This document shows, in pieces, positions 42,359 to 56,038 of a stretch of 64,000 nt of DNA. The notes beneath the pieces were generated by a model that had not been told where the DNA came from, did not search any database, and saw nothing but the letters and a program-made list of their open reading frames with translations. Position 1 is the first letter of the stretch. Every line of letters starts with the position of its first letter. Source of the stretch: an uncultured Peptostreptococcaceae bacterium (lineage in GTDB: Bacteria > Bacillota > Clostridia > Peptostreptococcales > Acidaminobacteraceae); the NCBI GenBank assembly GCA_964404895.1, contig CAYOLV010000003.1:252561-316560 (forward strand). The letters are read 5' to 3'. The position numbers and the translations under genes are program-made.

Positions 42359-43090
42359 CTATAGTAATTGTTTTTTATCTACTTCACGAACTTTCTTTGC
42401 TGGTGAGCCCATATAAACTTGTCTAGCTTCAAGATCTTTGGATACCAAACTGCCTGCTGCCACTAAAGCTTCTTCTCCAATAACCTTCCCAGGCAAAACA
42501 GTTACCTGTGCACCTAATCTGGCTCCTTGTTTAAGGGTCACACCTTTAAAATGATTGAACCGTTCTGAGTCACGCCCTACATAGTTATCGTTTGACGTCA
42601 CTACCCCTGGCGCTACAAAAATATCATCTTCCAGAGTAGAATAGGCTGTAATGTAAGCATTGGTTTCAATTTTACAACGGCTACCTATTGTACACCAATT
42701 TTCAATGGTTGCATTTCTGCCTATAATATTTTTATCCCCTAAAGTTACGTTTTCACGTATGGAGGCATAGTCTGCAACCAGACAATGTTCACCAAGTTTA
42801 CAATTTGCATAAATAATCGTATGTGTCCCTATAATACAACCCTCTCCAATCACACAAGGGGGTTGTTTTTCACTTGAGCTGGTTACTGATGTAATAGCTT
42901 TCATCGGTTGTTTACCAATTACAGCGTGGTCATCAATCCGAATATTTTTACCAAAATGACTACCCTCATGAATCACAACATGATGTCCAATCACACAGCC
43001 TTCATCTATGCTTACATTGGCTCCAATTACTGCAAATTCACCAATCACTACACTTTTATGAATGGTTGCCGTACTGTGAATCTTATGCAT
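42359..43090 (-). CDS. left-handed beta-helix (hexapeptide) N-acetyltransferase, WbpD/WlbB-like by context
   Basis: 243 aa with long runs of hexapeptide repeats (IGEFAVIGANVSIDEGCVIGHHVVIHEGSHFG...). Overlaps the WbpB-like gene by 8 nt. Confidence 0.6.
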   Translation of the reverse strand: MHKIHSTATIHKSVVIGEFAVIGANVSIDEGCVIGHHVVIHEGSHFGKNIRIDDHAVIGKQPMKAITSVTSSSEKQPPCVIGEGCIIGTHTIIYANCKLGEHCLVADYASIRENVTLGDKNIIGRNATIENWCTIGSRCKIETNAYITAYSTLEDDIFVAPGVVTSNDNYVGRDSERFNHFKGVTLKQGARLGAQVTVLPGKVIGEEALVAAGSLVSKDLEARQVYMGSPAKKVREVDKKQLL

Positions 43091-44204
43091 GATTGATCAC
43101 CTCAATTGCCTCAATAGTGGCATATCTAAAGTTCTTCATTTCAATCAAACGACTTTCTTTTTGAGACCGGTAAGCTGCCAAAATAACATTCATAGCACGA
43201 GCAGCGCTGACTGCATCACATACAAGGCTTTCGCCTAACACAATGGCATTGTATAAGTTATAGTAAAGTTTAGCATGTCCATTGCCATAGACACTGTCAA
43301 TAGTATCATGAAGATTCAAGATCTGCTCATCGCTTTCCTCAACACTTTTAAACTGCCAATTTTGAACTTGATTCACTGCTAAGCCCCCAATGACAACCGT
43401 ACCCGTCTCCCCGAAGATGCTCAGAGTTTCTTCAAGGTTTTGTGGATAAACACAAGCACTGCCTTCAACAATACCAATCGCACCACTTTCGAATCTCAAC
43501 ACAATTGCTCCGAAATCTTCCATTTCAATATTGCGCAAGAATGTTCCAGTCTGAGCGTATACTGTTTTTACAGGAGAATCCATCATCCATAGTAGTAAAT
43601 CAATATTATGAATACATTGATTCATAAGGGTTCCACCATCCATAAGAGCAGTTCCACGCCAAGGGGCTTGCTGGTAATAATTTTGATCTCTTGTCCATAA
43701 AATTCGAGCAGTGCCATTTATTTTTCTGCCAAATCGATTGGTTTCAACAGCTGCTCTAAGGGCTTGAATAGGTGGATTAAATCTATTTTGATGACACACA
43801 CTGAGAACGAGACCTTTTTCCTTCGCTTTGGTAATCATCTCTTCAGCGTGTTCGGTAGAAAGAGCAATAGGTTTTTCAACGAGTACATGTCGTCCAGATT
43901 CTAACAATATCATCACATGATTAAAATGGTTCCCGCTTTCGGTAGCAACTATACCTATATCAAAATTTTCTTCTTGAATCATTTCCAAGTAATCTTCATA
44001 AACACTAGGCAAATTCTTCGCGCTAAATCCTTTATCCTTTAAATGTTTCTCGTAACTCTCTTTTTTATTTTGGGCACGGAGTAAATCTACATCACAAAGT
44101 GCTACCAGCTCGTATTTTTCAAAGAGGTCTGTTAAGGCTTCAATATGCTTGATTGCTATTCGACCGCATCCGATTAGGGCTACGCGTATTTTTTTTTGAT
44201 CCAT
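43083..44204 (-). CDS. Gfo/Idh/MocA-family oxidoreductase, WbpB/WlbA-like (UDP-GlcNAcA 3-dehydrogenase) by context
   Basis: N-terminal Rossmann IRVALIGCGRIA and EKP motif (VLVEKPIAL). Confidence 0.6.
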   Translation of the reverse strand: MDQKKIRVALIGCGRIAIKHIEALTDLFEKYELVALCDVDLLRAQNKKESYEKHLKDKGFSAKNLPSVYEDYLEMIQEENFDIGIVATESGNHFNHVMILLESGRHVLVEKPIALSTEHAEEMITKAKEKGLVLSVCHQNRFNPPIQALRAAVETNRFGRKINGTARILWTRDQNYYQQAPWRGTALMDGGTLMNQCIHNIDLLLWMMDSPVKTVYAQTGTFLRNIEMEDFGAIVLRFESGAIGIVEGSACVYPQNLEETLSIFGETGTVVIGGLAVNQVQNWQFKSVEESDEQILNLHDTIDSVYGNGHAKLYYNLYNAIVLGESLVCDAVSAARAMNVILAAYRSQKESRLIEMKNFRYATIEAIEVINHA

Positions 44205-44226
44205 CGGTATGCCTCCTTTAAAATTA

Positions 44227-45537
44227 CTACAACCTATTTATTTTTACCCTATTTTCGAGAACTGACTCGGTTCCGTTTTTTGTATCAAATAGTAATGGTG
44301 CATGATTGACAATCCATTGATAATCTAAATAGCTGTGTTTGGTGGTGATAACAACCAAATCCGCTTCTGCGAGAAGACTTTCAGTCAACTTTTGAGAATT
44401 ATAGACAATGTCCTGATGTGTAAAGCTGGGGATATAATCGTCGTGGTAAACAACCTTAGCACCTTCATTTTCTAAATGCTCAATGACTTTCAACACAGGA
44501 GATTCACGAAGATCATCAATGTCTTGCTTATAAGCCGCACCTATCAGCAGAACTTTAGAACCATTCATGGCTTTTTTTTCTTTGTTCAAAAGGCGCATCA
44601 TCCTCGTAACAGTATATTCTGGCATGTATTCATTAACTTGTGCTGCCGATTCAATCAGTTTGGCATGAAAGTCAAACTCCTTAGCTTTCCATGTTAAATA
44701 AAAAGGATCAATGGGAATACAGTGTCCACCCAACCCTGGCCCTGGATAAAAAGCTTGGAAGCCATAAGGTTTGGTTTTTGCTGCGTTAATGACTTCCCAA
44801 ATATCAATTTTCATCTTTTCACAAAGGATAGCCAGTTCATTTACAAGGGCAATATTTACATTTCTGTATGTGTTTTCAAGAATTTTTTCCATTTCAGCCA
44901 CTTCTGGTGAACTAACTTGATGAATTTCTCCATCTAAGACACTTCTATAAATGCTGGCTGCAAGTTGACCACATGCGTCAGTCATGCCTCCAACGACTTT
45001 TGGTGTATTTTTAGTATTGTAGAGTTTATTCCCTGGATCTACTCTTTCAGGCGAGAACGCGAGAAAGAACGTTTCACCTAGGATATACCCACATTCTTCA
45101 AATATTGGAAGAAGAACCTCGCGAGTCGTTCCCGGATAAGTTGTGCTCTCTAATACTACCAATGTATTTTCCTTCATGTATTTAGCAATAGCTTTAGAAG
45201 AAGACTCTACATAGGAAATATCTGGCTGATGGTGTGCGTCTAGCGGAGTTGGTACGCAGATCATCACTGCATCCACTTCAGCTATTTTTGAATAGTCAGG
45301 TGTAGCAATTAGACTTCCCTCCTGAATAATTTTTGTAAGGTTCGCATCTACTACGTCGCCAATATAGTTAATTCCTTTGTTGACCATTTCGCAACGACTT
45401 TCCTGAATATCAAATCCAATGACTTTGAAACCCGCTAAGGCTTTTTCTACTGCTAAAGGCAGTCCTACATAGCCAAGCCCCACTACACCAATAACAGCTG
45501 TTTTATTTTCAATTTTTTTCATCAATACGTTAAACAT
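44227..45537 (-). CDS. UDP-N-acetyl-hexosamine 6-dehydrogenase (nucleotide-sugar dehydrogenase, WbpA/WecC/Cap5O-like)
   Basis: IGVVGLGYVGLPLA Rossmann and catalytic GPGLGGHCIPIDP motif; 436 aa. Confidence 0.75.
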   Translation of the reverse strand: MFNVLMKKIENKTAVIGVVGLGYVGLPLAVEKALAGFKVIGFDIQESRCEMVNKGINYIGDVVDANLTKIIQEGSLIATPDYSKIAEVDAVMICVPTPLDAHHQPDISYVESSSKAIAKYMKENTLVVLESTTYPGTTREVLLPIFEECGYILGETFFLAFSPERVDPGNKLYNTKNTPKVVGGMTDACGQLAASIYRSVLDGEIHQVSSPEVAEMEKILENTYRNVNIALVNELAILCEKMKIDIWEVINAAKTKPYGFQAFYPGPGLGGHCIPIDPFYLTWKAKEFDFHAKLIESAAQVNEYMPEYTVTRMMRLLNKEKKAMNGSKVLLIGAAYKQDIDDLRESPVLKVIEHLENEGAKVVYHDDYIPSFTHQDIVYNSQKLTESLLAEADLVVITTKHSYLDYQWIVNHAPLLFDTKNGTESVLENRVKINRL

Positions 45538-45554: not shown

Positions 45555-46667
45555 CTAAAGTTTCTTATAAAAAGCTATAATAGCTTCAATTACGCGATCC
45601 TGATCTTCGTTAGAAAGAGAGGGGTACATTGGAAGAGCCAATGCACGTTCCGCCAAGCGCTCTGTGACTGGAAAATCACCCTTTTGATAACCCAGATAAA
45701 GTAATGCTTTTTGGAGATGTAAAGGAATGGCATAATAGACAGCTGTCGAAATTTCAAGATCATCAAGGTAGGCTGTCAAATCATTTCGATTTTCAACCAT
45801 AAGACTGTAAATATGATAGACACTTTTACCTTTAAGGGTTTCTTTAGGCGTTTGAATCTCTTTTATTTCTTTGAATGCAGCATTGTACCTAGCCGCAATC
45901 TCTCTACGGCGATTATTCCACTTTTCCAAATAAGGCAGCTTCACATTCAATATAGCTGCTTGAAGTTCATCTAAGCGGGAATTATATCCAATAATTTCAT
46001 TTTGATATTTAACTTTTTGTCCATGAAATCTGAGCATTCGAATTTTTTCAGCTAATTCTGTGTCGTCAGTCGTTATGAGTCCACCATCTCCAAAGCCACC
46101 TAAGTTCTTTGTAGGGAAAAAGGAGAAGCACCCAATGTGTCCCGCTCCGCCAATCATAGTTCCATCATAGGAAGCTCCTATTGCTTGACAGGCATCTTCT
46201 ATGACGTATAAGCCATACTCTTTAGCAATTTGTGCTATACTGTCGACATCTACCGGATTGCCAAAAATATGAACGTTCATAATAGCCTTTGTTTTAGGAG
46301 TTATAACCGCTCTTACTGCCTCTGGGTCGATGTTATATGTATCTGCCTTTACATCTGCAAATACTGGTTTTGCCCCTACTCTGCAAATAGTTTCAGCTGA
46401 GGCAAAAAAGGTAAACGGAGTTGTTATAACCTCATCTTCTGGCCCGATACCTAAAGCATCAAGTGCAAGTACCAATGCATCGGTTCCGTTAGCTACACCA
46501 ATGGCATGCTCCACATTCAGATAGTTCGCTATATCTTTTTCAACACGCTTCACTTCTTCGCCCAATATATAGTTTTCCTTATTCAGAACCTTTGAAAGAG
46601 CTGCTTCAAATTGGCTTTGAGAGATTGTCTCCTTACAGGAAATATTGATGACAGGTATATGTTTCAT
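45555..46667 (-). CDS. DegT/DnrJ/EryC1/StrS-family PLP aminotransferase, WbpE/WlbC-like by context
   Basis: 370 aa with GVANGTDALVLAL, SFFPTKNLGGFGDGG (PLP lysine region) and RFHGQ. Confidence 0.75.
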   Translation of the reverse strand: MKHIPVINISCKETISQSQFEAALSKVLNKENYILGEEVKRVEKDIANYLNVEHAIGVANGTDALVLALDALGIGPEDEVITTPFTFFASAETICRVGAKPVFADVKADTYNIDPEAVRAVITPKTKAIMNVHIFGNPVDVDSIAQIAKEYGLYVIEDACQAIGASYDGTMIGGAGHIGCFSFFPTKNLGGFGDGGLITTDDTELAEKIRMLRFHGQKVKYQNEIIGYNSRLDELQAAILNVKLPYLEKWNNRRREIAARYNAAFKEIKEIQTPKETLKGKSVYHIYSLMVENRNDLTAYLDDLEISTAVYYAIPLHLQKALLYLGYQKGDFPVTERLAERALALPMYPSLSNEDQDRVIEAIIAFYKKL

Positions 46668-46855: not shown

Positions 46856-46882
46856 ATATCGGATGGTAATTAGAATAGTTTA
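46856..46882 (-). promoter_or_regulatory. candidate SigD/sigma-28 promoter for the four-gene Wbp-like sugar operon
   Basis: Minus strand: TAAA (46879-46882), exactly 15 nt, TCCGATAT (46856-46863). One mismatch to TAAA-N15-GCCGATAT. Lies ~190 nt upstream of ATG 46667. Confidence 0.6.
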
Positions 46883-46966: not shown

Positions 46967-48532
46967 ATGAATCCTATCGAAAACCAATTAATTAACCTTA
47001 TTGAAAATGGCTTATATCAAGATGCAAATAGCTTTCTTGATAAACATCCCGAACTGATTGACTCTCCTTCAGAAAAAACTGCAAGTGGAATATCTATGCT
47101 TCTAATACTTATGGGCGACTTAGATGCATGTTTAAGTTTTGCTTCCTATCATCTAAAAAAAGTTCCAAGTGCTGATCTTTACTATAATAAGGCATATGCG
47201 CTTGAGCAATTAGGCGATTTCCAAAATGCAATTGTTTCATACCAATGCGCTAGGCTCTTCACAATTGACCCTGACCTTAGAAGGGATTCTACAGTAAAGA
47301 TTCAGCAATTACGTTTTCCTGAGTTGGATGAAACTGAGTTAATCGCTCATTTGGAATATATGTCTAATACAAAAGAATTCATTATTGACCAAATAAACTC
47401 ACCTAAGAAAATTTTAGAACCATCAAACTATAATATAACAGCTACACCGGTTGTTGTTGATAAACCAAGAATCCTATATGGTACGATGGAAATTGCTAAT
47501 CACATGTCCCATTATATTCGATATTTTAGAGATCATGGTTATGATACAATCGGCATTGATTATATTCCTTCTTATTTACGGTATGATTCCGATTTCTCAT
47601 ATGATATCAACCAACTAACACCTCAAAATACGCGAAATCATTTTATCGAAAATGCTGCAGATCTTATTCTTGATTATGATGTTTTTCATTTTCTCTTTAA
47701 TCGGACGCTAATGCCAGACGGATCCGACATAATTCCATTAAAACTGCTGAACAAAACCGTTTTCATGCATAATTTAGGTTCAGAAATTAGAATTCCAAGC
47801 ATCGCCAGATCACATCACCCTTTCTGGCATTATGCAGAAGAGTACTTGAATCAACTAAACGAAGATATTATATGTTCCAACCTGAAAATATACTCAAGCT
47901 GGATTGATCATTGTATTATTAACGATCAAGAAATGTTGTCTTATGTAGAACCATATTATAAAAACACCCATATGATTGGTCTACCAATTGACCTCAAAAA
48001 ATATCCTTATATCGGGATTAAAAACGAAGTTCCACTTAAGTTTGTCCACGCTCCGACAAATCAGAGCGTTAAAGGTTCTACCTATTTTGAAAGCGCGATT
48101 TTACACTTACAAAAGAAATACAACATTCTATATCAACGTATTGAACGTACTGGTCATGAAGACGCTATTAAACAATATGCTGAAGCAGACATAGTTCTTG
48201 ACGAGTTAATCATTGGTACCTACGGTAGTTTGACTATCGAATGTCTTGCAATGGGAAAATGTGTCGTGACCTTTATCAATCCAGGTTTCGATACACCCCA
48301 CGGTTCAGAAATACCCGTTTGGAGCGTTAATGTAGATAATATTATTGATCGATTAGAACTCTTAATTAATTCACCCGAAATAAGACAGTCGCTATCTAAT
48401 GCTGGGCGTGCATATGTTGAAAAATTCAACGATGTTTCCAAGATTGGTAGTAGTTTGCTGAGTCTTTATACTTCAGAGTTTGAAAAAAATATCAAACTAA
48501 GTAATCTTGATAGAGTAGATGTTAAATTTTAA
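46967..48532 (+). CDS. TPR-repeat protein fused to a GT-B (GT1/GT4-like) glycosyltransferase domain
   Basis: N-terminal TPR-like helices (YYNKAYALEQLGDFQNAIVSYQ). C-terminal VHAPTNQSVKGSTYF...DELIIGTYGSLTIECLAMGKCVV resembles the GT-B EX7E region. Start ATG 46967 with AAAGGAGA RBS. The only plus-strand gene between 20.3 kb and the window end. Confidence 0.6.
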   Translation: MNPIENQLINLIENGLYQDANSFLDKHPELIDSPSEKTASGISMLLILMGDLDACLSFASYHLKKVPSADLYYNKAYALEQLGDFQNAIVSYQCARLFTIDPDLRRDSTVKIQQLRFPELDETELIAHLEYMSNTKEFIIDQINSPKKILEPSNYNITATPVVVDKPRILYGTMEIANHMSHYIRYFRDHGYDTIGIDYIPSYLRYDSDFSYDINQLTPQNTRNHFIENAADLILDYDVFHFLFNRTLMPDGSDIIPLKLLNKTVFMHNLGSEIRIPSIARSHHPFWHYAEEYLNQLNEDIICSNLKIYSSWIDHCIINDQEMLSYVEPYYKNTHMIGLPIDLKKYPYIGIKNEVPLKFVHAPTNQSVKGSTYFESAILHLQKKYNILYQRIERTGHEDAIKQYAEADIVLDELIIGTYGSLTIECLAMGKCVVTFINPGFDTPHGSEIPVWSVNVDNIIDRLELLINSPEIRQSLSNAGRAYVEKFNDVSKIGSSLLSLYTSEFEKNIKLSNLDRVDVKF

Positions 48533-48599
48533 AAAACTCCTGTCTTTTGCATAAAGTTGAGTTCCCTTATGCAAAGTAATCTTGAATGAACTAAGTAAT

Positions 48600-48637
48600 A
48601 AAAGCTGACCCTGTAATGTACAGGAGTCAGCTTTTTT
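48600..48637. terminator. bidirectional rho-independent terminator between convergent island genes
   Basis: AAAGCTGACCCTGTA-atg-TACAGG(A)GTCAGCTTT, a long stem followed by TTTTTT on the + strand and by TTTTATT on the - strand. Confidence 0.8.
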
Positions 48638-48709: not shown

Positions 48710-49840
48710 CTACTCATGCTTAATTGTATATTTCTCATAAAAGGATTTTGGCACTAGTTCCAACTTGTACATGAGATAGAAGAACGGTCTTAGTCTTTCA
48801 AATCGTTGTTTATATGTTTTGAAGTCTTTATAGCTTTTAACTGGCAAATTCATAACGCGTTCAAATTCCACATCTGTAAATTCCAGTCTTTTTTTTACCA
48901 GCTCCAATACACCATCTTCTAAGAAGTGTGGCTCATTCAAGCGCAGTTTACCTTCTTCCTTCGTTAGCTGTTTATTACGAACAAGTGCTGCTACTTCATT
49001 AACTCGTTGATCTAAATTAAAGCGCTTTGGCATAAAGTAACTATGATAGAAAGCTGTAAATCGATTTTCGAGATGATGTCCACCATACCACTGCCATCCA
49101 TATTTCTCACTTAGGAATTTTTTTGTATCTTCTTTATGATAATCAATATAGTATAAAGGTCTGACGCGTTTTATTTTATAAAACAACATATACTTCATAA
49201 ACTTATGGAACCATAGGTTTGGAAAAGTCTTCATTGGCAATTTTCCATATTTTTTATGCACGCTGTCAATATACTTCCCATCCATATAAATATGTCCAAG
49301 AGGAGTGCTACCTTCAGTTCTAAAAGAATGTCCATCAATAATATATTTGATATTGTATTTTTCACAAGCCATATACAGTGTTGTGATTAGACCAATATCT
49401 GTTGGCGTTTCAATATCCGGAAGGCCTGCTAGAAGGAATGAGCGATACAAATCATCATATTCTTTATTATCTACAACATAAGTAAATAATTCTATATCCA
49501 ATTGATCTAGCATCGTCTTAATGTTTTGCGTTGCAATTGCCGAATTCCAAGTATTATCAAAGTGAACTGCTAGAGGTCGAACACCGAGTTCTTTCATAAG
49601 ATGAAGCAAGTATGATGAATCACATCCGCCGCTAACTCCAATTGCACAGTCAAACTGCTTGCCTTTACCAGATTTTTTTATATCTTCAGCTAATTTCTCT
49701 AACTTTTTTCTGCCTTCTTCTCCAATAGGATATATCGCGTCAAATCTTTCAGACTCTCTGCAATAATTACATATACCTTCTTCGTCAAAGGTAATATTAG
49801 GAATTTTCTCATCATAGGTACATCTGCTGCATTCTTTCAT
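48710..49840 (-). CDS. N-acetyl sugar amidotransferase (WbpG/PseA-like, PP-loop ATP pyrophosphatase)
   Basis: N-terminal Cys cluster CSRC...CNYC and PP-loop GVSGGCDSSYLLH. Adjacent to HisH/HisF paralogs, as in acetamidino-sugar loci. Confidence 0.8.
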   Translation of the reverse strand: MKECSRCTYDEKIPNITFDEEGICNYCRESERFDAIYPIGEEGRKKLEKLAEDIKKSGKGKQFDCAIGVSGGCDSSYLLHLMKELGVRPLAVHFDNTWNSAIATQNIKTMLDQLDIELFTYVVDNKEYDDLYRSFLLAGLPDIETPTDIGLITTLYMACEKYNIKYIIDGHSFRTEGSTPLGHIYMDGKYIDSVHKKYGKLPMKTFPNLWFHKFMKYMLFYKIKRVRPLYYIDYHKEDTKKFLSEKYGWQWYGGHHLENRFTAFYHSYFMPKRFNLDQRVNEVAALVRNKQLTKEEGKLRLNEPHFLEDGVLELVKKRLEFTDVEFERVMNLPVKSYKDFKTYKQRFERLRPFFYLMYKLELVPKSFYEKYTIKHE

Positions 49841-49857: not shown

Positions 49858-50610
49858 CTATCTCATATGTTCGATTTCTTTATTTGGATAGTTAATCAGT
49901 ACCCCTCTAAACTCACTTTTATAGACAAACAAGCTTCCTGCCGCTAGGGCTGGAACTCCTGTTTTAAAAGCTTCTCTCAAATGCTCCAAATTACCTGCCC
50001 CGCCAAGACCTATTACAGGCACGTTAATCCGTTCCATGCACATTTTTATAAGTTCGATGTTATATCCCTTCATTTCACCGTCACGCTGTATATCGTTAAT
50101 TAAAATCTCACCTATACCGAGATTGTCGATATACATCAGAACTTCATCAAATTTCATTTTAACTTTTACTTTACCGTTTCTTAAAAACACCTCATAGCTA
50201 CCCCAAATATTTTTTTTGCAATCGATTGATGCAATAATTGCTTGAGCCCCAAACTTAGCGACAGCTTGCCTTACAACCTCTGGATTTTCGAAAAGGAGGG
50301 AATTAAGGCTTATTTTCTCTACACCGATCTGGAAAATTTGTTCCATCTGTTCAATCGTTTTAACGCCTCCACCATAAGCAAGCGGTATGAAACACTCATC
50401 TACAATTTTTTTGATCAAAGAAATGTTAGGTTTTTTTCCTTCTGTAGTAGCTGAAATATCCAAAATAATAAGTTCATCCACTTCACAATCGTTGTATATT
50501 TTTACAGCATTAATCGGATCACCAATATAACTAAATTTATTAAATTGAATAGTCTTGACTAATGCTTCATCCTTAAGTAACAAACAAGGAATTATTCGTC
50601 TTTTTAACAT
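49858..50610 (-). CDS. imidazole glycerol phosphate synthase cyclase subunit paralog (HisF-like)
   Basis: RIIPCLLLKD N-terminus and GGGV...GAGN (beta/alpha)8 phosphate-binding motifs. Not in a his operon. Confidence 0.8.
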   Translation of the reverse strand: MLKRRIIPCLLLKDEALVKTIQFNKFSYIGDPINAVKIYNDCEVDELIILDISATTEGKKPNISLIKKIVDECFIPLAYGGGVKTIEQMEQIFQIGVEKISLNSLLFENPEVVRQAVAKFGAQAIIASIDCKKNIWGSYEVFLRNGKVKVKMKFDEVLMYIDNLGIGEILINDIQRDGEMKGYNIELIKMCMERINVPVIGLGGAGNLEHLREAFKTGVPALAAGSLFVYKSEFRGVLINYPNKEIEHMR

Positions 50611-50613
50611 TGT

Positions 50614-51225
50614 TTATCCCGCCTCTACAAAGTTCTTCAAGATGCGCATTCCAAACTTATGACTTTTTTCAGGATGAAATTGAACACCGTAAATATTTCC
50701 CTTTTGAAAAGCCGCTGTAAATCGATTGATATAATCCGCATACAAAATAACTTCTTCTTCATTCTGACACTTAACATAATAAGAGTGGACAAAATAGTAG
50801 CGGTAGGTTGAATCAAATCCCTCGCTTAATGGACTCTGGGTGCTAACATAAACTTCATTCCACCCCATATGCGGTATTCGTTCTTTCTTTTCACTTGGAA
50901 TAAATTTTACAGTTTTACCTTCAATCCATCCCAATCCCGGAAGTATACCCTCTTCGCTGGAATCCGTCATCAATTGCATGCCCAAGCAAATACCTAAAAT
51001 TGGCTTTTTTTCAACATTGACCAATTGATTCAGAATCGATTCTAATCCAGAATCTCTCAATGCCTTGATTCCAGGGTCAAAACTTCCAACACCAGGCAAT
51101 ATTAGTTTATCGGCTTGTCTAAGAATCACAGGATCCTTGGTAATGACAGAATCAAAACCTATTTTTTTGATCATATTTTGAATGGATCCGGTATTGCCAA
51201 ATCCATAGTTAACAATGGCTATCAT
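50614..51225 (-). CDS. glutamine amidotransferase subunit paralog (HisH-like)
   Basis: Class I GATase triad context: LILPGVGSF, GICLGMQLM, HSYY, FHPEKS. Confidence 0.8.
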   Translation of the reverse strand: MIAIVNYGFGNTGSIQNMIKKIGFDSVITKDPVILRQADKLILPGVGSFDPGIKALRDSGLESILNQLVNVEKKPILGICLGMQLMTDSSEEGILPGLGWIEGKTVKFIPSEKKERIPHMGWNEVYVSTQSPLSEGFDSTYRYYFVHSYYVKCQNEEEVILYADYINRFTAAFQKGNIYGVQFHPEKSHKFGMRILKNFVEAG

Positions 51226-51232: not shown

Positions 51233-51781
51233 CTACTCCTTCAAGTACTCAATTTGAATTGATCCATCCTCATTTATAATAATCTTACCAATCAATTTGG
51301 CTGGTGTTCCAGCAATTACGCTGTTTTCAGCAAAGGACTTATTAACATAACTATTTGCTGCTACAATTGAATGATTACCAATTGTTACTCCTTTATCAAT
51401 GATGCATTGACTCCCAATATAAACGCCATTTCCTATTGAAGTTGGCGCATAACTATATGAAGCATTCCCTTCTGTGAGAACCCACGCAAGAGAACTGTGG
51501 GTATAAATTTGAACGCCTGCAGACACATTGCAGTATCTACCAATTTCCAACCCCCCCGTTCCGTCTAAAATAGTGAAGGGCCCAATCCAGGTTTTTTCTC
51601 CAACCTCTACTTCGCCAAAAACAAATGAACTGTCATAGATACTTGCACCTTCTTCAAAATTGAGAAATTTAGCCTTATCCCACCGGTTATTGAACAGTTC
51701 TGACCTTGGAATAACCCGTTTCCAATCTGTTAGCATTTCTCTCTCTCGATGTTCCAACTCCACAATTAATTCATCCCACAT
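51233..51781 (-). CDS. hexapeptide-repeat acyl/acetyltransferase
   Basis: 182 aa with LbH repeats (IGNGVYIGSQCIIDKGVTIGNHSIVAANSYV). Confidence 0.65.
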   Translation of the reverse strand: MWDELIVELEHREREMLTDWKRVIPRSELFNNRWDKAKFLNFEEGASIYDSSFVFGEVEVGEKTWIGPFTILDGTGGLEIGRYCNVSAGVQIYTHSSLAWVLTEGNASYSYAPTSIGNGVYIGSQCIIDKGVTIGNHSIVAANSYVNKSFAENSVIAGTPAKLIGKIIINEDGSIQIEYLKE

Positions 51782-51783: not shown

Positions 51784-52917
51784 CTACATTCCCTCACATT
51801 CACTAAGGCATTTAAGGAAACATTTTGATATAATGCATATGTCTTCTATCGTCAAACTTTGATGCAGTGGTAAGCATAAGCCGTGTTCAAACAACTTTTT
51901 TGAAATAGGCATTCCGCTTGGATAATGTTTACTGTACTTATTTTTATAATACTCAGTATGCAATGTCGAGTATGCGCCATAATTTGATTCAATTCCAAAT
52001 TCTCTTAACATTGCAATTAATTTTTTCCGATTAATCTGTGGCTCTAAAACAACCATAAAAGACTGCCAAGTATGCCCATCTTGCCATTTAGGTAATTTCA
52101 CTAAGTCAGAATTAATCTGTCTTCTGTATTCATTTTGAAGGATTCTTCGTGTTTTGATCCAGTCGTCGAACAAATCGATTTGAACAACGCCTAGAACCGC
52201 TTGCATATTTGTAAGTCTATAATTTAGTCCCGGTGCTATAAAATCAATTGATCCGTTTTTCGATTGCATTCCATGATTTCTTAACACCTTAACCTTCTCA
52301 ATGAAAAACTTGTTATTTGAGACGATAGCTCCGCCTTCACCTGTTGTGATTGCTTTTCTAGGATGAAAAGAAAAACAGCCTACATCTGACAGAAGACCCA
52401 CCTTGTCTTGACCCGCTTCCGTACCAAATGCACACGCAGCGTCCTCTATTAAAAACAAATTATAATCCTTGGTTATTTTAGCGATAGTTTCAATTTGTCC
52501 TGCAGCTCCAAACTCATGAACTAAAATAACACCCTTAAGCACTATTTTATCCTGCCAAGTTTCTATAGCTTCGACTAACTTCATTGGATCCATCGAATAA
52601 AAGTCTGACTCCACATCTACAAAAATTGGGATTGCTCCCATTACCTCAATTACGTTTACTGTTGCAGGGAACGTGAAGTTAGAAACTAAGACGCCTTCAC
52701 CCGGTTTTATATCAAGTGCCATCAAAGCTAAATGTAAGCTTGCAGTACATGATGAAGTCACGGCTACATTTGATGACTCTATTCCAAGATAACTTCCAAT
52801 TTTATATTCGAACAACTCGCACTTTTCTCCATGAACAAGCTGTTTTGAAAACAACACTTCCTTCATCAACTCAAATTGCTCTTGATTGATAACAGGGTCT
52901 GCAAGTCTATAACGCAT
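51784..52917 (-). CDS. DegT/DnrJ/EryC1/StrS-family PLP aminotransferase (second copy)
   Basis: 377 aa with SFHPRKAITTGEGG (PLP lysine region) and RNHG. Confidence 0.75.
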   Translation of the reverse strand: MRYRLADPVINQEQFELMKEVLFSKQLVHGEKCELFEYKIGSYLGIESSNVAVTSSCTASLHLALMALDIKPGEGVLVSNFTFPATVNVIEVMGAIPIFVDVESDFYSMDPMKLVEAIETWQDKIVLKGVILVHEFGAAGQIETIAKITKDYNLFLIEDAACAFGTEAGQDKVGLLSDVGCFSFHPRKAITTGEGGAIVSNNKFFIEKVKVLRNHGMQSKNGSIDFIAPGLNYRLTNMQAVLGVVQIDLFDDWIKTRRILQNEYRRQINSDLVKLPKWQDGHTWQSFMVVLEPQINRKKLIAMLREFGIESNYGAYSTLHTEYYKNKYSKHYPSGMPISKKLFEHGLCLPLHQSLTIEDICIISKCFLKCLSECEGM

Positions 52918-52929
52918 TAATCTTCACCC

Positions 52930-53928
52930 CTACATCTTAAAAATTTCTGGATAGTCTGGCATGAGAATGTTATTTGCTTTGTACCATTCACTTGTTCTTT
53001 TAATGCCTTCTTCCAAATTAATTTGAGCTTCTAAACCAAGAATTTCTCTCATTTTATCAACTTTTGGAATACGCAATTCAATATCTGCGGAAAGTGGCGG
53101 TCTGAATACAATTTTCGATTCTGATCCTAATACCCTGCAAACAGCCTGAGCCAGACCATAAATAGTCGTGATATCTCTCGCATTTCCAATGTTGAAGGAT
53201 TGTCCCACGGCGTTTGGATTCTCAAGACACGCCATAACGCCATCAATCATATCATCGATATAACACCAAGCCCTAATCTGAGTGCCATCTCCAAAGATCA
53301 GTATGTCATCTCCTCTGAGCGCTTTCCTAATGAATATCTGAATTGCACCTTCACCAATCTGACCTGGTCCGTAAATGTTGAATGGTCTAACTGTTACTGT
53401 AGGCAGTCCGCACTTTTTATGATATGCCTCTGTGAAATGCTCTCCTGTCAATTTGCTAACTGCATATGTCCATCGAGCTTCTCCAGCAACACCTGTAACC
53501 ATATTGTCGCTTTCTTCAGACTTATAAGCATGATTTCCAAAAACTTCTGATGTGGAGAAATCAATAAATCTATCAATGCCACGTCTTTCGTGAAGTTTTG
53601 CAGCCACATCTAATACATTGTAGGTACCTAAAATATTGACCTTCATTGTCCTAACTGGGTCTTTGACAGTATTGTCAATTCCAGCTACTGCTGCAGCATG
53701 TACAATAATGTCTACATCTGTCATGGCAGTTTCGAGTGCCTCATAGTCTAAAATATCACCTTCAATTAAGGTTAGATTCTTATGACCGTAGTAATGCTTG
53801 CTTTGAAGCGAATTTCGTTCCAATTTATCAAACACGATAATTTCATTATCTTCTACAAGTCTTTCAATTAAGGTAGATCCGATAAAACCAGCTCCACCAG
53901 TTATGAATATTTTTTTATTATTAATCAT
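52930..53928 (-). CDS. NAD-dependent sugar-nucleotide epimerase/dehydratase (extended SDR)
   Basis: [10 protein letters not shown] Rossmann and catalytic YAVSK (YxxxK); 332 aa. Confidence 0.75.
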
Positions 53929-53953
53929 TAATTTGCTCCATTATTATTATTTT

Positions 53954-56038
53954 TTAGTGACTTCTTTTTCTCAATGCATCATCATATTTTATTTGCATTG
54001 TCTCATCAACACCGTATATTTTAGTAAACTCAGTTATTATTGATGCAACGTCATCAAATAAATTATTTCCTAATAGATAATCGATATTCTTTACTAATTC
54101 TTCTTTTAATTTTTCAAATTCTGTATCATTATGTCTTTTTGTTGAATCAACATTGTCTAAATTAATTTTGTTGTTAATCCACGTTAACAACGACTTACTC
54201 CATTCTGGGAAAATTAAACATGCGTGATTTACAAGTTCTATCTTCTCACTCTCTGCACCATTAAATAAATTATATATAATCGCCAATAATTGTTCTTCAC
54301 TATTTTTAAATTCATTCATTAATCTAGAATTTAAAAAATCAGCATTATACTTAAAACATAAGCCATTAATACCATTTTGAAAATACTTATCCATGTAAGT
54401 TAAATATTTTTCATCGCCAAATGAAGAAATCATTAGATATTTATACAAAATGCGCTTCAAATTTAAATAAGAGTAGATTTGCATTTCTTCAAAGATAATT
54501 AAATATTTTTCGATGTTATTCGCAAGATCATGATATTTTTCATCAGCTGCTGATAGCAATGTCATCATATCTGATTCGTTTATTTTACTAAATATACTTG
54601 AAAAGTCATATTTTTTTTCGATTCCCAAAACTAACGCTTCGTCACAAGAAATAGTTAAGAGATCATCAAAATCATTTCCATTACCATTATTATTTGTAAT
54701 TTCTAAGATTGTCTCTGAATTAATTCTCATGCTAATAACTTTCCCTAACATTGAAGGTATGGAACCTAATTGGTACACGTTATTACCCTCGACTACTTCG
54801 CTTAATTTATATTTGCTAATGTTAGACCAAACCATTTCATCCAATCGAATCCACCGTTTTACTGGATATCTGTGATACAACTCTATTACATCTTCAAATT
54901 TCATCAGTCGAATACTAGCTTTAATGTAATTATTCAAACTATTAATAAAGAATTCAGTACTTTCATTTGTATTATTAATCATCCAGCTCGAATACACCTG
55001 TACATTATCCCACTCTTCTTTTTTGCAATAAGCTTGAGATAAATTGTACCTACATTCTTCTTCTGACTGAAGCGTATATAGTTGAACAGAAAAATTTTTA
55101 CTTATTGCAAGATTTTTGATATTTGGAAGCATTTCTAAGTACTTTATCATTTGATTTATACCGTTATCCAAATCTTCAATCCCAAAATAAGCCATCCCCA
55201 AGAAATAATGCAAATCTATGTGGTCAGGCTCTAAGACAAGTCCTTCTTGAGCAATCTCTATCGCACGAGAATACTCTTTTTTTGCAATTAGCGTTTTACA
55301 ATATGGACCCCATAAATATAAAGTTGATAAATTCTTTTGATTCTGCTTCAATATCAAATTATACGTCTTTTCATATTCAACCTTTGATAGATCAAGATCT
55401 TTGTACATATCATATGTTGTCGCCAACTGGAATCGATAATATATATTTTCTGGATCTTTCTCCAACTCATTTAAGAGAAGTGCAGATGTTCTTAAAAATT
55501 TTCTTTCCATTAAATCCATATCATCAGAAATATAACCATAGTGTATGATTTGACTATTCAGTTCTATTACATTTCCTGTAATAAAAGGTATGTTATGTAC
55601 ACTACCTTCATATCTCAATTCCCCATCATTTCTAAATAACCGAACAGTAGTTAAGGCTGATCCTGCTTCACCTTTTTTATTAGCGATATTTAAAAGCTTT
55701 AAAGCCGCTGCTACAAAATTTCTATCATTAGCTTTAACAAAAGAAATTAGAGCCTGAGGATCTATCAGCTCTTCATCAGCATCAATAATTAAAATCCAAT
55801 TGCCTTTTGCGTAGCCAATACTTTTGTTCCTCATTTCTGAAAAATCATGATTCCATTCATGATGGTATATCTTATCTGTATATTTTTGAGCAATATTGAC
55901 GGTTGAATCAGTTGAACCTGTGTCAATAATTATCAATTCACTTTGCAACTCAGCTTTTAATATTTCCAAGCTATCCAAACATCTTACTAAATTACTTTCT
56001 TCATTCTTTACCATCATACAAATACTTAATTGAATCAT
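53954..56038 (-). CDS. family-2 glycosyltransferase fused to a long TPR/helical-repeat region (candidate flagellin glycosyltransferase)
   Basis: N-terminal GT-A domain (LSICMMVKNEE...IIDTGSTDST...IIDADE), then ~450 aa of TPR-like helical repeats. Start ATG 56038 with AAGGAGAG RBS. First gene downstream of flagellin. Confidence 0.7.
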   Translation of the reverse strand: MIQLSICMMVKNEESNLVRCLDSLEILKAELQSELIIIDTGSTDSTVNIAQKYTDKIYHHEWNHDFSEMRNKSIGYAKGNWILIIDADEELIDPQALISFVKANDRNFVAAALKLLNIANKKGEAGSALTTVRLFRNDGELRYEGSVHNIPFITGNVIELNSQIIHYGYISDDMDLMERKFLRTSALLLNELEKDPENIYYRFQLATTYDMYKDLDLSKVEYEKTYNLILKQNQKNLSTLYLWGPYCKTLIAKKEYSRAIEIAQEGLVLEPDHIDLHYFLGMAYFGIEDLDNGINQMIKYLEMLPNIKNLAISKNFSVQLYTLQSEEECRYNLSQAYCKKEEWDNVQVYSSWMINNTNESTEFFINSLNNYIKASIRLMKFEDVIELYHRYPVKRWIRLDEMVWSNISKYKLSEVVEGNNVYQLGSIPSMLGKVISMRINSETILEITNNNGNGNDFDDLLTISCDEALVLGIEKKYDFSSIFSKINESDMMTLLSAADEKYHDLANNIEKYLIIFEEMQIYSYLNLKRILYKYLMISSFGDEKYLTYMDKYFQNGINGLCFKYNADFLNSRLMNEFKNSEEQLLAIIYNLFNGAESEKIELVNHACLIFPEWSKSLLTWINNKINLDNVDSTKRHNDTEFEKLKEELVKNIDYLLGNNLFDDVASIITEFTKIYGVDETMQIKYDDALRKRSH

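What the first reader, a model, noticed from the sequence alone, without database searches (positions are those of the whole stretch)
42359..56038. Flagellar glycosylation island predicting a di-N-acyl / acetamidino uronic-acid glycan rather than a nonulosonate
Eleven genes lie between the flagellin gene and flaG-fliD. Module 1 (45555-46667, 44227-45537, 43083-44204, 42359-43090) comprises a DegT aminotransferase, a UDP-HexNAc 6-dehydrogenase, a Gfo/Idh/MocA oxidoreductase and an LbH acetyltransferase. That is the WbpE/WbpA/WbpB/WbpD enzyme set which, in Pseudomonas aeruginosa O5 and Bordetella, makes UDP-2,3-diacetamido-2,3-dideoxy-glucuronic acid. Module 2 (48710-56038) has a WbpG/PseA-type N-acetyl-sugar amidotransferase with HisH/HisF paralogs (the acetamidino-forming trio). 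It also has a second aminotransferase, an LbH acetyltransferase, an SDR epimerase/dehydratase and a GT2-TPR glycosyltransferase. A second TPR-glycosyltransferase (GT-B type, 46967-48532) is encoded on the opposite strand. I see no NeuB/PseI-type synthase, no CMP-sugar synthetase, no Maf (DUF115), no Wzx/Wzy, no initiating phosphoglycosyltransferase and no 2-epimerase. The location, the absence of export and polymerase genes, and the very Ser/Thr-rich flagellin centre all argue for cytoplasmic O-glycosylation of flagellin with an unusual uronic-acid glycan. As far as I recall, 2,3-diacetamido and acetamidino uronic acids are known on archaellins and in O-antigens but are not a standard bacterial flagellin modification.
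Basis: partly seen in the sequence, partly recalled or inferred. Interest (0 to 1): 0.7.

Follow-up and report, generated by a model that had tools for sequence, protein, structure and literature searches.

The report
Flagellin island making a triamino-pentose sugar

Summary
No NeuB, CMP-sugar synthetase, Maf, Wzx/Wzy or priming transferase occurs anywhere in the 64-kb window.

Module 1 is a WbpA/WbpB/WbpE/WbpD-like set for UDP-GlcNAc3NAcA, and the WbuX/HisH/HisF2 acetamidino trio is real. However, the "SDR epimerase/dehydratase" is 64-70% identical to PDB 8VR2, the Pcryo_0617 oxidoreductase/decarboxylase of Psychrobacter cryohalolentis. The adjacent aminotransferase matches Pcryo_0618 and the Vibrio vulnificus enzyme that makes "2,3-diacetamido-4-a[mino]…". 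The next acyltransferase matches 8VR6.

So the di-N-acetyl uronic acid is most likely decarboxylated, 4-aminated and 4-N-acylated. That gives a 2,3,4-tri-N-acyl-triamino-L-arabinose, probably carrying one acetamidino group.

Two TPR glycosyltransferases would put the sugar on flagellin: one GmaR-like (GT2) and one with FlmG-like architecture (GT-B). A σD-type promoter precedes module 1. The island is syntenic in Fusibacter MAGs.

Di-N-acetylhexuronic acid on flagellin is already known from Clostridium botulinum. A triamino-pentose on flagellin is not, in the literature I could search. This is a new variant of a known kind of system.

The parts
57465..57490 (-). σD/σ28-type promoter-like element (TAAA-N15-GCCGATA) upstream of flagellin
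   Evidence: one of only 3 matches in 64 kb (0.5 expected). All three are on the - strand, in intergenic regions upstream of late flagellar genes.
56161..57357 (-). Flagellin (398 aa), the presumed glycan acceptor
   Evidence: Flagellin_N 167 bits, Flagellin_C 102 bits; central region is 24% Ser+Thr. 76-79% identical to the flagellins next to the syntenic islands in L007, L008 and L083.
56112..56146 (-). Intrinsic terminator after flagellin (13-bp stem plus U-tract)
   Evidence: ΔG -20.7 kcal/mol, z = -6.6, 0 of 200 shuffles fold as well.
56085..56114 (-). σ70-like promoter (TTTAGA-N18-TATAAT) for the GT2-TPR→WbuX operon
   Evidence: 10 of 12 matches. One search shows it lies between the terminator and the RBS AAGGAGAG / ATG at 56038. 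This is a consensus match only.
53954..56038 (-). GT2 (GT-A) plus TPR glycosyltransferase, 694 aa; GmaR-like candidate flagellin O-glycosyltransferase
   Evidence: Glycos_transf_2 71 bits. PDB 'GmaR' 6e-29, SunS 3.5e-14, TPR proteins 1e-14. SunS family and MamA TPR. DAD motif; GC 29.3%. Conserved directly after flagellin in L008 and F. bizertensis L083.
52930..53928 (-). UDP-(2,3-diacetamido)uronate C4-oxidoreductase/decarboxylase (Pcryo_0617 type)
   Evidence: 8vr2 1.5e-140; next best are UXS1 decarboxylases at 3.5e-43; 8VR2 title 'Pcryo_0617 oxidoreductase/decarboxylase from P. cryohalolentis K5', 64% identity, TM 0.88-0.95. GxxGxxG, T126-S127-E128, Y155xxxK159 and R286 are all invariant in the family.
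51784..52917 (-). Sugar C4-aminotransferase (Pcryo_0618 / V. vulnificus type)
   Evidence: 8vr5/8vr3 2e-91, 9bgp 9e-89; titles 'Pcryo_0618 aminotransferase' and 'aminotransferase from Vibrio vulnificus responsible for the biosynthesis of 2,3-diacetamido-4-a…', 40-43% identity, TM 0.93-0.96, with ArnB next. PLP lysine K188 is invariant.
51233..51781 (-). LbH acyltransferase, presumed 4-N-acetyltransferase
   Evidence: PDB 8vr6/8vr7/8vrm 'Acetyltransferase, putative' 1.3e-41; the next hits are at 1e-13. Those PDB ids follow directly on 8VR2-8VR5, so the same study is inferred.
50614..51225 (-). HisH-type glutaminase subunit of the acetamidino system
   Evidence: GATase; TIGR01855 239 bits. GICLG nucleophile. 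Sits 3 nt from HisF2.
49858..50610 (-). AglZ/HisF2-family acetamidino modification protein
   Evidence: NF038364 335.5 bits (cutoff 310); WbuZ 278 bits.
48710..49840 (-). WbuX/WbpG/PseA-family N-acetyl-sugar amidotransferase (PP-loop)
   Evidence: TIGR03573 234 bits (cutoff 203). SGGCDS PP-loop and N-terminal CxxC…CxxC. 84% identical in L007 and L008.
48599..48637 (.). Bidirectional terminator between the convergent WbuX and TPR-GT-B genes
   Evidence: A-run / 14-bp stem / U-run hairpin; z = -5.2 on the + strand and -3.1 on the - strand.
46967..48532 (+). N-terminal TPR plus C-terminal GT-B (GT1/GT4-like) glycosyltransferase, 521 aa; FlmG-like architecture
   Evidence: weak TPR_1 at residues 97-123 of the long ORF; the C-terminal ~65% is homologous to PF00534/PF13524/PF13692 proteins; no PDB sequence hit. 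RBS AAGGAGAA before the ATG at 46967. 52-53% identical and in the same position and orientation in L007 and L008.
46857..46882 (-). σD/σ28-type promoter-like element (TAAA-N15-TCCGATAT) upstream of module 1
45555..46667 (-). WbpE-like UDP-3-keto-GlcNAcA 3-aminotransferase
   Evidence: WbpE 2e-83. The top hits (7b0d, QdtB, DesV-like 2oga) are mostly C3-aminotransferases by my recollection of these enzymes. PLP lysine present.
44227..45537 (-). WbpA-like UDP-HexNAc 6-dehydrogenase
   Evidence: three UDPG_MGDP_dh domains; TIGR03026 429 bits; best PDB hits are UDP-ManNAc/UDP-GalNAc-type dehydrogenases. GLGGHC catalytic Cys. 58% identical to the dehydrogenase heading the WbpABDE-like operon of P. 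faecium.
43083..44204 (-). WbpB/WlbA-like UDP-GlcNAcA 3-dehydrogenase
   Evidence: PDB 3q2i/3q2k 2e-67 (by my recollection, WlbA of C. violaceum and B. pertussis); the next hit is only 1e-23; archaeal UDP-GlcNAc 3-dehydrogenase model is the best NCBIfam hit. Operon context.
42359..43090 (-). 3-N-acetyltransferase (QdtC/WlbB class LbH), 243 aa; overlaps the preceding gene by 8 nt
   Evidence: QdtC 1e-28, WlbB (3mqg) 2e-18.: -8 nt spacing.
39930..42289 (-). flaG and fliD (downstream flagellar genes; there is no terminator between module 1 and flaG)
   Evidence: FlaG 74 bits, FliD_N/FliD_C; the 42290-42358 spacer has no stable hairpin (z = +1.2).

Best explanation
The island is one linear, about eight-step nucleotide-sugar pathway plus two flagellin glycosyltransferases.

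Pathway:
1. UDP-GlcNAc is oxidised at C6 by the WbpA-like dehydrogenase.
2. It is oxidised at C3 by the WlbA-like enzyme.
3. It is transaminated at C3 by the WbpE-like enzyme.
4. It is N-acetylated by the QdtC/WlbB-like enzyme, giving UDP-GlcNAc3NAcA.
5. The Pcryo_0617-type SDR oxidises C4 and decarboxylates it to a UDP-4-keto-pentose.
6. The Pcryo_0618-type aminotransferase makes UDP-2,3-diacetamido-4-amino-2,3,4-trideoxy-L-arabinose.
7. The 8VR6-type LbH enzyme acylates N4.
8. WbuX, with HisH and HisF2 supplying glutamine-derived ammonia, converts one acetamido group to an acetamidino group.

The finished UDP-sugar would have a residue mass of about 255.12 Da, or 254.14 Da with the acetamidino group. 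It is transferred in the cytoplasm to Ser/Thr of flagellin by the GmaR-like GT2-TPR enzyme. The TPR-GT-B enzyme either extends the glycan or serves other sites.

Shown here: the identity and intactness of each enzyme class, the close homology to the characterised decarboxylase and aminotransferase, synteny, and the absence of nonulosonate and export genes.

Inferred: the substrate order, which N-acetyl group becomes the amidine, the acyl donor, and flagellin as the acceptor.
For: - Enzyme classes.
- Module 1 matches WlbA, WbpE and QdtC/WlbB.
- SDR = Pcryo_0617 decarboxylase homologue with an invariant TSE/Y/K/R set.
- DegT2 = Pcryo_0618 / V. vulnificus '2,3-diacetamido-4-a…' aminotransferase homologue.
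- LbH2 matches 8vr6/7/m.
- P. cryohalolentis makes 2,3,4-triacetamido-2,3,4-trideoxy-L-arabinose: PMC8040287.
- Gene order links the uronate genes directly to the decarboxylase in unrelated genomes. P. faecium has WbpA-B-D-E-like genes followed by the SDR. Alcanivorax and other loci have LbH → WbpE-like → SDR → DegT2-like.
- Tight spacing (2-25 nt) within GT2-TPR→WbuX, and an 8-nt overlap in module 1.
- Flagellar link: the position between flagellin and flaG; the σD-like promoter before module 1; no terminator before flaG; GmaR homology; TPR-GT architecture as in FlmG (PMC7591256); the whole island is syntenic beside flagellin in Fusibacter MAGs and the head of it in F. bizertensis.
- No 2-epimerase, NeuB, CMP-synthetase, Maf, Wzx/Wzy or PGT in the window.
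Against: - There is no biochemical or MS data for this organism.
Their activities rest on truncated PDB titles, the published O-antigen structure and my recollection.
- The identity of 8VR6 as the pathway's N-acetyltransferase is inferred from consecutive PDB ids.
- DegT2 is only 40-43% identical to the characterised enzymes.
- LbH2's more distant relatives are O-acetyltransferases.
- Two glycosyltransferases could mean two donors, so the uronic acid intermediate might also be transferred.
- The promoter matches are consensus hits only.
- The 3q2i/3q2k = WlbA assignment could not be verified in the library.
Confidence: 0.6

Rival explanations
1. The transferred sugars are uronic acids: GlcNAc3NAcA and/or its 3-acetamidino form. 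The SDR/aminotransferase/LbH genes either make a separate second sugar or the pentose is only a minor product. A mixed glycan, with a uronic acid added by one GT and the pentose by the other, falls under this heading.
For: - A complete WbpA/B/E/D-like set is present.
- In P. aeruginosa O5 and in methanogen archaellin glycans, the acetamidino trio acts on a 2,3-diacetamido uronic acid (family naming; established knowledge).
- There are two different TPR-GTs.
- C. botulinum flagellins really do carry di-N-acetylhexuronic acid, m/z 259 (PMC2674064 section 19).
Against: - A 64-70% identical orthologue of a decarboxylase sits in the same operon and would consume UDP-GlcNAc3NAcA.
- The decarboxylase directly follows the WbpE/WbpD-like genes in unrelated genomes.
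- Nothing in the island suggests a second, independent precursor: there is no nucleotidyltransferase and no 4,6-dehydratase TDE motif.
Confidence: 0.22
2. A branched pathway. The decarboxylase acts on UDP-GlcNAcA, before C3 chemistry, giving a 2,4-diacetamido-2,4-dideoxy-pentose. Module 1 independently finishes UDP-GlcNAc3NAcA. That yields two donors for the two GTs.
For: - UDP-GlcNAcA decarboxylases exist in Bacillus cereus (my recollection of published work, not checked here).
- The island is split into two transcription units with different promoters.
- There are two GTs.
Against: - The closest characterised relatives come from organisms making 2,3-diacetamido-4-amino or 2,3,4-triacetamido arabinose (PMC8040287).
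- The SDR is contiguous with WbpD/WbpE-like genes elsewhere.
Confidence: 0.1
3. The island feeds a cell-envelope polymer (secondary cell-wall polysaccharide, S-layer glycan or capsule) and sits in the flagellar locus only by chance or by hitch-hiking.
For: In P. faecium and several Gram-negative genomes the same five-gene core serves Wzx-type polysaccharide clusters. In Clostridium, flagellar hypervariable regions sometimes hold envelope genes (PMC13317340).
Against: - No Wzx/Wzy, ABC exporter, priming phosphoglycosyltransferase or ligase in the island or the window.
- Both GTs carry TPR protein-binding modules typical of flagellin GTs (PMC7591256; PMC13317340).
- σD-like promoter.
- Conserved flagellin → GT2-TPR → SDR adjacency in three related genomes.
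Confidence: 0.05

Closest known systems
Psychrobacter cryohalolentis K5T O-antigen pathway: Pcryo_0617 (decarboxylase), Pcryo_0618 (aminotransferase) and the co-deposited acetyltransferase, downstream of the GlcNAc3NAcA enzymes; product 2,3,4-triacetamido-2,3,4-trideoxy-L-arabinose
   Same: Same enzyme series in the same logical order. SDR: 64-70% identity. Aminotransferase: 42-43%. Acetyltransferase: about 1e-41. It is preceded by a WbpA/B/E/D-type set (PMC8040287).
   Different: That pathway is Gram-negative and feeds a Wzx/Wzy-type lipopolysaccharide O-antigen. Here the genes are in a Gram-positive flagellar locus, paired with TPR protein-glycosyltransferases and an acetamidino trio, and there is no export machinery.
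Wbp/Wlb pathway of Pseudomonas aeruginosa O5 / Bordetella (WbpA, WbpB, WbpE, WbpD, WbpI; plus WbpG with HisH2/HisF2 for the acetamidino form)
   Same: The four steps to UDP-GlcNAc3NAcA and the amidotransferase trio are all present (pathway as summarised in PMC10622841).
   Different: There is no WbpI 2-epimerase, so no manno-configured product. A decarboxylase/aminotransferase/acyltransferase extension is added. The N-acetyltransferase is the longer QdtC-like form (243 aa). The acceptor is a protein, not undecaprenyl-linked glycan.
Clostridium botulinum Group I flagellin glycans (di-N-acetylhexuronic acid m/z 259; acetylated variant m/z 301)
   Same: A clostridial flagellar glycosylation island that makes a non-nonulosonate, di-N-acetylated uronic-acid-derived sugar O-linked to flagellin (PMC2674064 section 19; PMC13317340).
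   Different: In C. botulinum the uronic acid is retained, the evidence is MS only and the genes were never assigned. Here the genes predict further decarboxylation, 4-amination and amidine formation.
Listeria monocytogenes GmaR (GT2-TPR flagellin O-GlcNAc transferase)
   Same: An N-terminal GT-A/GT2 domain with a DxD motif followed by TPRs. Best PDB sequence hit, 6e-29. Encoded in a flagellar locus.
   Different: GmaR transfers plain GlcNAc and doubles as the MogR anti-repressor. This protein is longer in its C-terminal part, only the GT domain aligns, and the donor is predicted to be a rare triamino-pentose.
Caulobacter crescentus FlmG (TPR plus GT-B flagellin glycosyltransferase)
   Same: The same modular layout as 46967-48532: an N-terminal TPR domain (flagellin-binding in FlmG) and a C-terminal GT-B domain (PMC7591256).
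   Different: FlmG transfers pseudaminic acid from a CMP donor. Direct sequence homology to FlmG was not tested. The TPR region here is short (about 170 aa) and weakly scoring.
ArnA/ArnB (UDP-GlcA → UDP-4-keto-pentose → UDP-L-Ara4N) of lipid A modification
   Same: The same chemistry: C4 oxidation with decarboxylation, then C4 transamination, giving the L-arabino configuration. It has the same TSE/Y/K/R catalytic set, and ArnB is the next-best structural match of DegT2.
   Different: Identity is only about 26-30%. The substrate here carries 2,3-diacetamido groups. The product is N-acylated (ArnA N-formylates) and goes to a protein, not to lipid A.

Membership tests
Wbp/Wlb UDP-GlcNAc3NAcA pathway | UDP-GlcNAc 6-dehydrogenase (WbpA) | tested here: met
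   Three UDPG_MGDP_dh domains; TIGR03026 429 bits against a cutoff of 190; catalytic Cys in GLGGHC. 58% identical to the dehydrogenase heading the WbpABDE-like operon in P. faecium. The exact substrate (GlcNAc or ManNAc) is inferred.
Wbp/Wlb UDP-GlcNAc3NAcA pathway | UDP-GlcNAcA 3-dehydrogenase (WbpB/WlbA, Gfo/Idh/MocA) | tested here: met
   PDB 3q2i/3q2k at 2e-67, full length; the next hit is 1e-23. That these entries are WlbA is my recollection (Thoden & Holden 2011, cited in PMC10622841) and could not be verified.
Wbp/Wlb UDP-GlcNAc3NAcA pathway | C3 aminotransferase (WbpE) | tested here: met
   WbpE 2e-83. The best hits include QdtB and a DesV-like entry, which I recall as C3-aminotransferases. 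PLP lysine present.
Wbp/Wlb UDP-GlcNAc3NAcA pathway | 3-N-acetyltransferase (WbpD/WlbB) | tested here: met
   QdtC 1e-28 and WlbB 2e-18. It is the longer QdtC-like form, not the ~190-aa WlbB form found in L008 and P. faecium.
Wbp/Wlb UDP-ManNAc3NAcA pathway | UDP-GlcNAc3NAcA 2-epimerase (WbpI) | tested here: not met
   No PF02350 Epimerase_2 protein among any window ORFs of 110 aa or more. The gluco configuration is therefore retained within this locus.
Pcryo_0617-0619-type triacetamido-L-arabinose pathway | C4-oxidoreductase/decarboxylase acting on the UDP-uronate | tested here: met
   8vr2 at 1.5e-140, 64-70% identity, TM 0.88-0.95; entry title names the decarboxylase; TSE/YxxxK/Arg invariant.
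Pcryo_0617-0619-type triacetamido-L-arabinose pathway | C4 aminotransferase | tested here: met
   8vr3/8vr5 (Pcryo_0618) 2e-91 and 9bgp/9bgr (V. vulnificus, '2,3-diacetamido-4-a…') 9e-89; TM 0.93-0.96.
Pcryo_0617-0619-type triacetamido-L-arabinose pathway | 4-N-acetyltransferase | tested here: inconclusive
   8vr6/7/m 'Acetyltransferase, putative' at 1.3e-41. Its role is inferred from consecutive PDB ids only. The more distant relatives are O-acetyltransferases.
Pcryo_0617-0619-type triacetamido-L-arabinose pathway | The sugar is actually present in a glycan of the organism | not testable with these tools
   Needs MS/NMR of flagellin.
Acetamidino system (WbuX/Y/Z; WbpG-HisH2-HisF2; AglX/Y/Z) | PP-loop N-acetyl-sugar amidotransferase | tested here: met
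   TIGR03573 234 bits against a cutoff of 203; SGGCDS motif.
Acetamidino system (WbuX/Y/Z; WbpG-HisH2-HisF2; AglX/Y/Z) | HisF paralogue of the AglZ/HisF2 family plus an adjacent HisH glutaminase | tested here: met
   NF038364 335.5 bits against a cutoff of 310. HisH: TIGR01855 239 bits, with GICLG. The genes are 3 nt apart.
GmaR-type GT2-TPR flagellin O-glycosyltransferase | GT2 catalytic domain with DxD, followed by TPRs, encoded in a flagellar locus | tested here: met
   Glycos_transf_2 71 bits; GmaR PDB hit 6e-29; TPR hits at residues ~213-390; DAD motif; lies immediately downstream of flagellin.
GmaR-type GT2-TPR flagellin O-glycosyltransferase | Glycosylates flagellin; acts as MogR anti-repressor | not testable with these tools
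   Functional properties. No MogR search was done.
FlmG-type TPR-GT-B flagellin glycosyltransferase | N-terminal TPR domain plus C-terminal GT-B domain | tested here: inconclusive
   GT-B is supported through homologues carrying PF00534/PF13524/PF13692. TPR rests on a single weak hit at 3e-5. Homology to FlmG itself was not tested, and no structure model was made.
Nonulosonate (Pse/Leg/Neu) flagellin glycosylation with Maf | NeuB/PseI synthase, CMP-sugar synthetase, Maf transferase | tested here: not met
   None among the window ORFs. The only NeuB hit is a 44-bit secondary match on a DAHP synthase in the shikimate operon. The rest of the genome was not examined.
Wzx/Wzy- or ABC-dependent surface polysaccharide cluster | Priming phosphoglycosyltransferase, flippase/polymerase or ABC exporter | tested here: not met
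   No Bac_transf, Glycos_transf_4, Polysacc_synt or Wzy-like proteins in the island or the window. Compare P. faecium locus L084, which has them.

The most novel reading that the evidence does not exclude
Flagellin of this Fusibacter-like clostridium is O-glycosylated with a 2,3,4-tri-N-acyl-2,3,4-triamino-2,3,4-trideoxy-L-arabinose bearing an acetamidino group. This would be a positively charged, carboxyl-free pentose that, in the literature I could search, has been linked only to a Psychrobacter O-antigen. It would be the first triamino-pentose protein glycan, and it would be installed by a Maf-independent pair of TPR glycosyltransferases (one GT-A, one GT-B). It would also show that a five-gene WbpABDE-plus-decarboxylase cassette moves between Gram-negative O-antigen clusters and Gram-positive flagellar loci.
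Probability: 0.45. Interest if true: 0.6.

Novelty: new variant of a known kind. Interest (0 to 1): 0.5.

Why it matters
Flagellin glycans affect filament assembly, motility, immune recognition and phage adsorption, and they are used as strain markers. Nearly all mechanistic work concerns nonulosonates transferred by Maf or FlmG.

This island offers a compact, fully specified alternative that can be tested: eight sugar-pathway enzymes plus two TPR glycosyltransferases. It predicts a concrete glycan mass of about 254-255 Da per residue.

It extends a pathway characterised structurally only in 2024 (by PDB release date) from Gram-negative LPS to Gram-positive protein glycosylation. It provides candidate transferases for an unusual cationic sugar, which may interest glyco-engineers.

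It also suggests candidate genes for the unassigned C. botulinum di-N-acetylhexuronic acid flagellin glycans, namely the WbpABED-like core without the decarboxylase.

Finally, it exposes a large family of Pcryo_0617-type decarboxylases that databases label as 'UDP-glucose 4-epimerase' or as generic epimerase/dehydratase.

Tried and rejected
Rejected. The motif is TSE, not TDE; an arginine aligns with the UXS arginine; and the best hit is a named decarboxylase.
- **A hidden NeuB.** The PF03102 hit on 29259-30176 is a DAHP synthase in the shikimate operon.
- **Finding the primary papers.** Searches by PDB code (8VR2/3/5, 9BGP/R, 3Q2I/K), by locus tag (Pcryo_0616-0619) and by sugar name found nothing. 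PMC3050068 and PMC9794024 are not held. The entry titles were recovered through structure prediction plus Foldseek instead.
- **Naming the organism by exact-protein look-ups.** The proteins occur only in Logan assemblies SRR13723392-96 and on an unnamed 412-kb NCBI contig. The nearest named relatives are Fusibacter species.
- **The longest ORF starts** (TTG 56107, ATG 46883). Rejected in favour of 56038 and 46967 on RBS, terminator and promoter evidence.
- **SDR relatives at ~50% identity** (Ignavibacteria, Myxococcota). They lack the partner genes, so they were not used as evidence.
- **Bacillales loci with DegT2-like genes** (B. tianshenii, Brevibacillus migulae). These are different mosaics and give no direct support.
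- **The generic terminator scanner** missed the flagellin terminator, which was found by reading the sequence and folding it.

Full report
**1. Observation**

Following the - strand, the order is:

- fliW, csrA, fliW
- flagellin (56161-57357)
- GT2-TPR (53954-56038)
- extended SDR (52930-53928)
- DegT aminotransferase (51784-52917)
- LbH acyltransferase (51233-51781)
- HisH (50614-51225)
- AglZ/HisF2 (49858-50610)
- WbuX amidotransferase (48710-49840)
- a convergent + strand gene (46967-48532)
- DegT (45555-46667)
- UDP-sugar 6-dehydrogenase (44227-45537)
- Gfo/Idh/MocA oxidoreductase (43083-44204)
- LbH acyltransferase (42359-43090)
- flaG, fliD, fliS

That is twelve island genes, not eleven. 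WbuX (234 bits against a cutoff of 203) and HisF2 (335 against 310) pass NCBI's curated thresholds. Catalytic motifs are intact in every enzyme.

The + strand protein has no direct glycosyltransferase hit. Its C-terminal two-thirds are homologous to proteins carrying Glycos_transf_1-type domains, which have the GT-B fold.

I scanned every other substantial ORF in the window. They are housekeeping genes (a shikimate operon, prfB, secA, tsaBDE and others) and late flagellar genes. There is no CMP-sugar synthetase, Maf, Wzx/Wzy, priming transferase or 2-epimerase. The only NeuB hit is a weak secondary match on a DAHP synthase. The flagellin centre is only moderately Ser/Thr-rich (24%).

**2. Module 1**

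The Gfo/Idh/MocA protein matches PDB 3q2i/3q2k at 2e-67, far ahead of anything else. I recall these as the WlbA UDP-GlcNAcA 3-dehydrogenases of C. violaceum and B. pertussis. That study is cited in PMC10622841, but I could not check the codes.

The aminotransferase matches WbpE at 2e-83 and groups with QdtB and a DesV-like entry, which I recall as C3-aminotransferases. The LbH enzyme matches the 3-N-acetyltransferases QdtC and WlbB. The dehydrogenase belongs to the UDP-HexNAc branch.

Together these form the WbpA/B/E/D route to UDP-GlcNAc3NAcA, as summarised in PMC10622841. There is no WbpI 2-epimerase.

**3. Module 2 changes the interpretation**

The SDR matches PDB 8vr2 at 1.5e-140, and its next-best hits are UDP-glucuronate decarboxylases. 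It carries the decarboxylase-type F-S-T-S-E-V-F-G motif rather than the T-D-E of 4,6-dehydratases. It also has YxxxK and an arginine aligned with the UXS arginine. All of these residues are invariant across 39 family members.

An AlphaFold model (pLDDT 85) searched against the PDB returned the entry title: [quoted passage not shown] (64% identity, TM 0.88-0.95).

The neighbouring aminotransferase (model pLDDT 96) matches two characterised enzymes at 40-43% identity and TM 0.93-0.96, with ArnB next. They are the "Pcryo_0618 aminotransferase" and the [quoted passage not shown].

The next gene, the LbH acyltransferase, matches 8vr6/8vr7/8vrm at 1.3e-41. Those PDB ids are consecutive with 8VR2-8VR5.

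The O-antigen of P. cryohalolentis K5T contains 2,3,4-triacetamido-2,3,4-trideoxy-L-arabinose (PMC8040287). The simplest reading is that UDP-GlcNAc3NAcA is an intermediate here. It would be oxidatively decarboxylated, 4-aminated and 4-N-acylated, using ArnA/ArnB-like chemistry on a di-N-acetylated substrate.

**4. Independent genomic support for a linear pathway**

- In Phascolarctobacterium faecium the SDR (64% identity) directly follows a contiguous WbpA-WbpB-WbpD-WbpE-like set. That set lies inside a classical polysaccharide cluster with Bac_transf and Wzx.
- In Alcanivorax and other Gram-negative MAGs the order is LbH → WbpE-like → SDR → DegT2-like.
- SDR relatives at about 50% identity lack these partners and are probably a different activity.

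**5. The link to the flagellum**

- The whole island is syntenic, beside flagellin, in an uncultured Fusibacter genome (L008) and in "Clostridiales bacterium 38-18" (L007).
- The flagellin → GT2-TPR → SDR head is kept in cultured F. bizertensis, which has different tailoring genes.
- The σD/σ28-type consensus TAAA-N15-CCGATA occurs three times in 64 kb (0.5 expected). All three are on the - strand and intergenic: before flagellin, before flgM/flgN and before module 1.
- Flagellin ends in a strong terminator (ΔG -20.7 kcal/mol, z = -6.6). This is followed by a σ70-like promoter for the tightly packed GT2-TPR→WbuX operon.
- A bidirectional terminator separates WbuX from the convergent GT gene.
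- No terminator separates module 1 from flaG.
- The GT2-TPR protein's best solved relative is Listeria GmaR (6e-29).
- The other GT has the TPR plus GT-B layout of Caulobacter FlmG, whose TPR domain binds flagellin (PMC7591256).
- No export or polymerisation genes are present.

**6. Comparison with what is known**

Di-N-acetylhexuronic acid (m/z 259) and an acetylated variant (m/z 301) are already known on C. botulinum flagellins from MS, with no gene assignment (PMC2674064; PMC13317340).

I found no report in the searchable library linking a triacetamido- or triamino-arabinose to flagellin or to any protein. Predicted residue masses are 255.12 Da for the tri-N-acetyl form and 254.14 Da with one acetamidino group. 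The uronic acids would be 258.09 and 257.10 Da.

**7. Verdict**

The locus is a real, intact flagellar glycosylation island of the non-nonulosonate type. Its most likely product is an acetamidino-bearing tri-N-acyl triamino-pentose, not a uronic acid.

- A uronic acid co-donor remains possible, since there are two GTs.
- The position of the amidine, the acyl donors and the roles of the two GTs are inferred.

I rate it a new variant of a known kind, of moderate interest. It makes a specific prediction that can be tested by mass spectrometry.

Noticed in passing
window 57520-58745 (-): Two fliW paralogues (58293-58745 and 57520-58029) flank csrA (58064-58291) just upstream of flagellin. The related loci L008 and F. 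bizertensis L083 show a single fliW before csrA/flagellin.
   Followed up: partly
window 46857-46882, 57465-57490, 63607-63632 (-); also 42300-42330: σD/σ28-type promoter consensus occurs only three times in the window, each upstream of a late flagellar unit, including sugar module 1. A near-consensus copy (TAAG-N15-CCGATAAT) lies just upstream of flaG. This suggests module 1 was inserted between an older promoter and flaG, or brought its own promoter.
   Followed up: partly
window 53954-56038 (-): The GT2-TPR gene has 29.3% G+C, against 35.7% for the island and 39.7% for the window (41.6% for 1-38000). The island, and this gene in particular, looks compositionally foreign.
   Followed up: no
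window 29259-30176 (-): A DAHP synthase in a shikimate operon (23630-31469) gives a secondary Pfam NeuB hit (44 bits). This is a trap for automated searches for nonulosonate synthases.
   Followed up: yes
proteins P0090-P0208; loci L009-L016, L084: Pcryo_0617-type decarboxylases at more than 60% identity are widespread (Phascolarctobacterium faecium, Rubrivivax, Nitrospiria, Alcanivorax, Arenicella, Saccharibacteria). Everywhere they are annotated as 'UDP-glucose 4-epimerase' or as generic epimerase/dehydratase, so the family is systematically under-annotated.
   Followed up: partly
L084 10990-12338 (P. faecium): In P. faecium the decarboxylase is followed by a short SDR (278 aa) and an LbH protein rather than an aminotransferase. 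This suggests reduction of the 4-keto-pentose to a 2,3-diacetamido-pentose in that gut bacterium's surface polysaccharide.
   Followed up: no
L083 11021-21020 (Fusibacter bizertensis GCA_054657815.1): A variant flagellar island. After flagellin → GT2-TPR → decarboxylase it carries a GT1, an aminotransferase, two methyltransferases, an ATP-grasp ligase, a metallophosphoesterase and a formyltransferase. Fusibacter flagellin glycans appear to diversify on a shared decarboxylase-derived scaffold.
   Followed up: no
L085 (Bacillus tianshenii CP129018.1): A flagellar island that combines a 953-aa Maf with an SDR plus a DegT2-like aminotransferase, two formyltransferases and an FdtA-type isomerase. 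It is another mosaic, mixing Maf with non-nonulosonate sugar genes.
   Followed up: no
window 39530-39925 (-): A 131-aa ORF between fliD and fliS has no Pfam hit. Its position suggests a FliT-like chaperone or an unknown flagellar protein.
   Followed up: no
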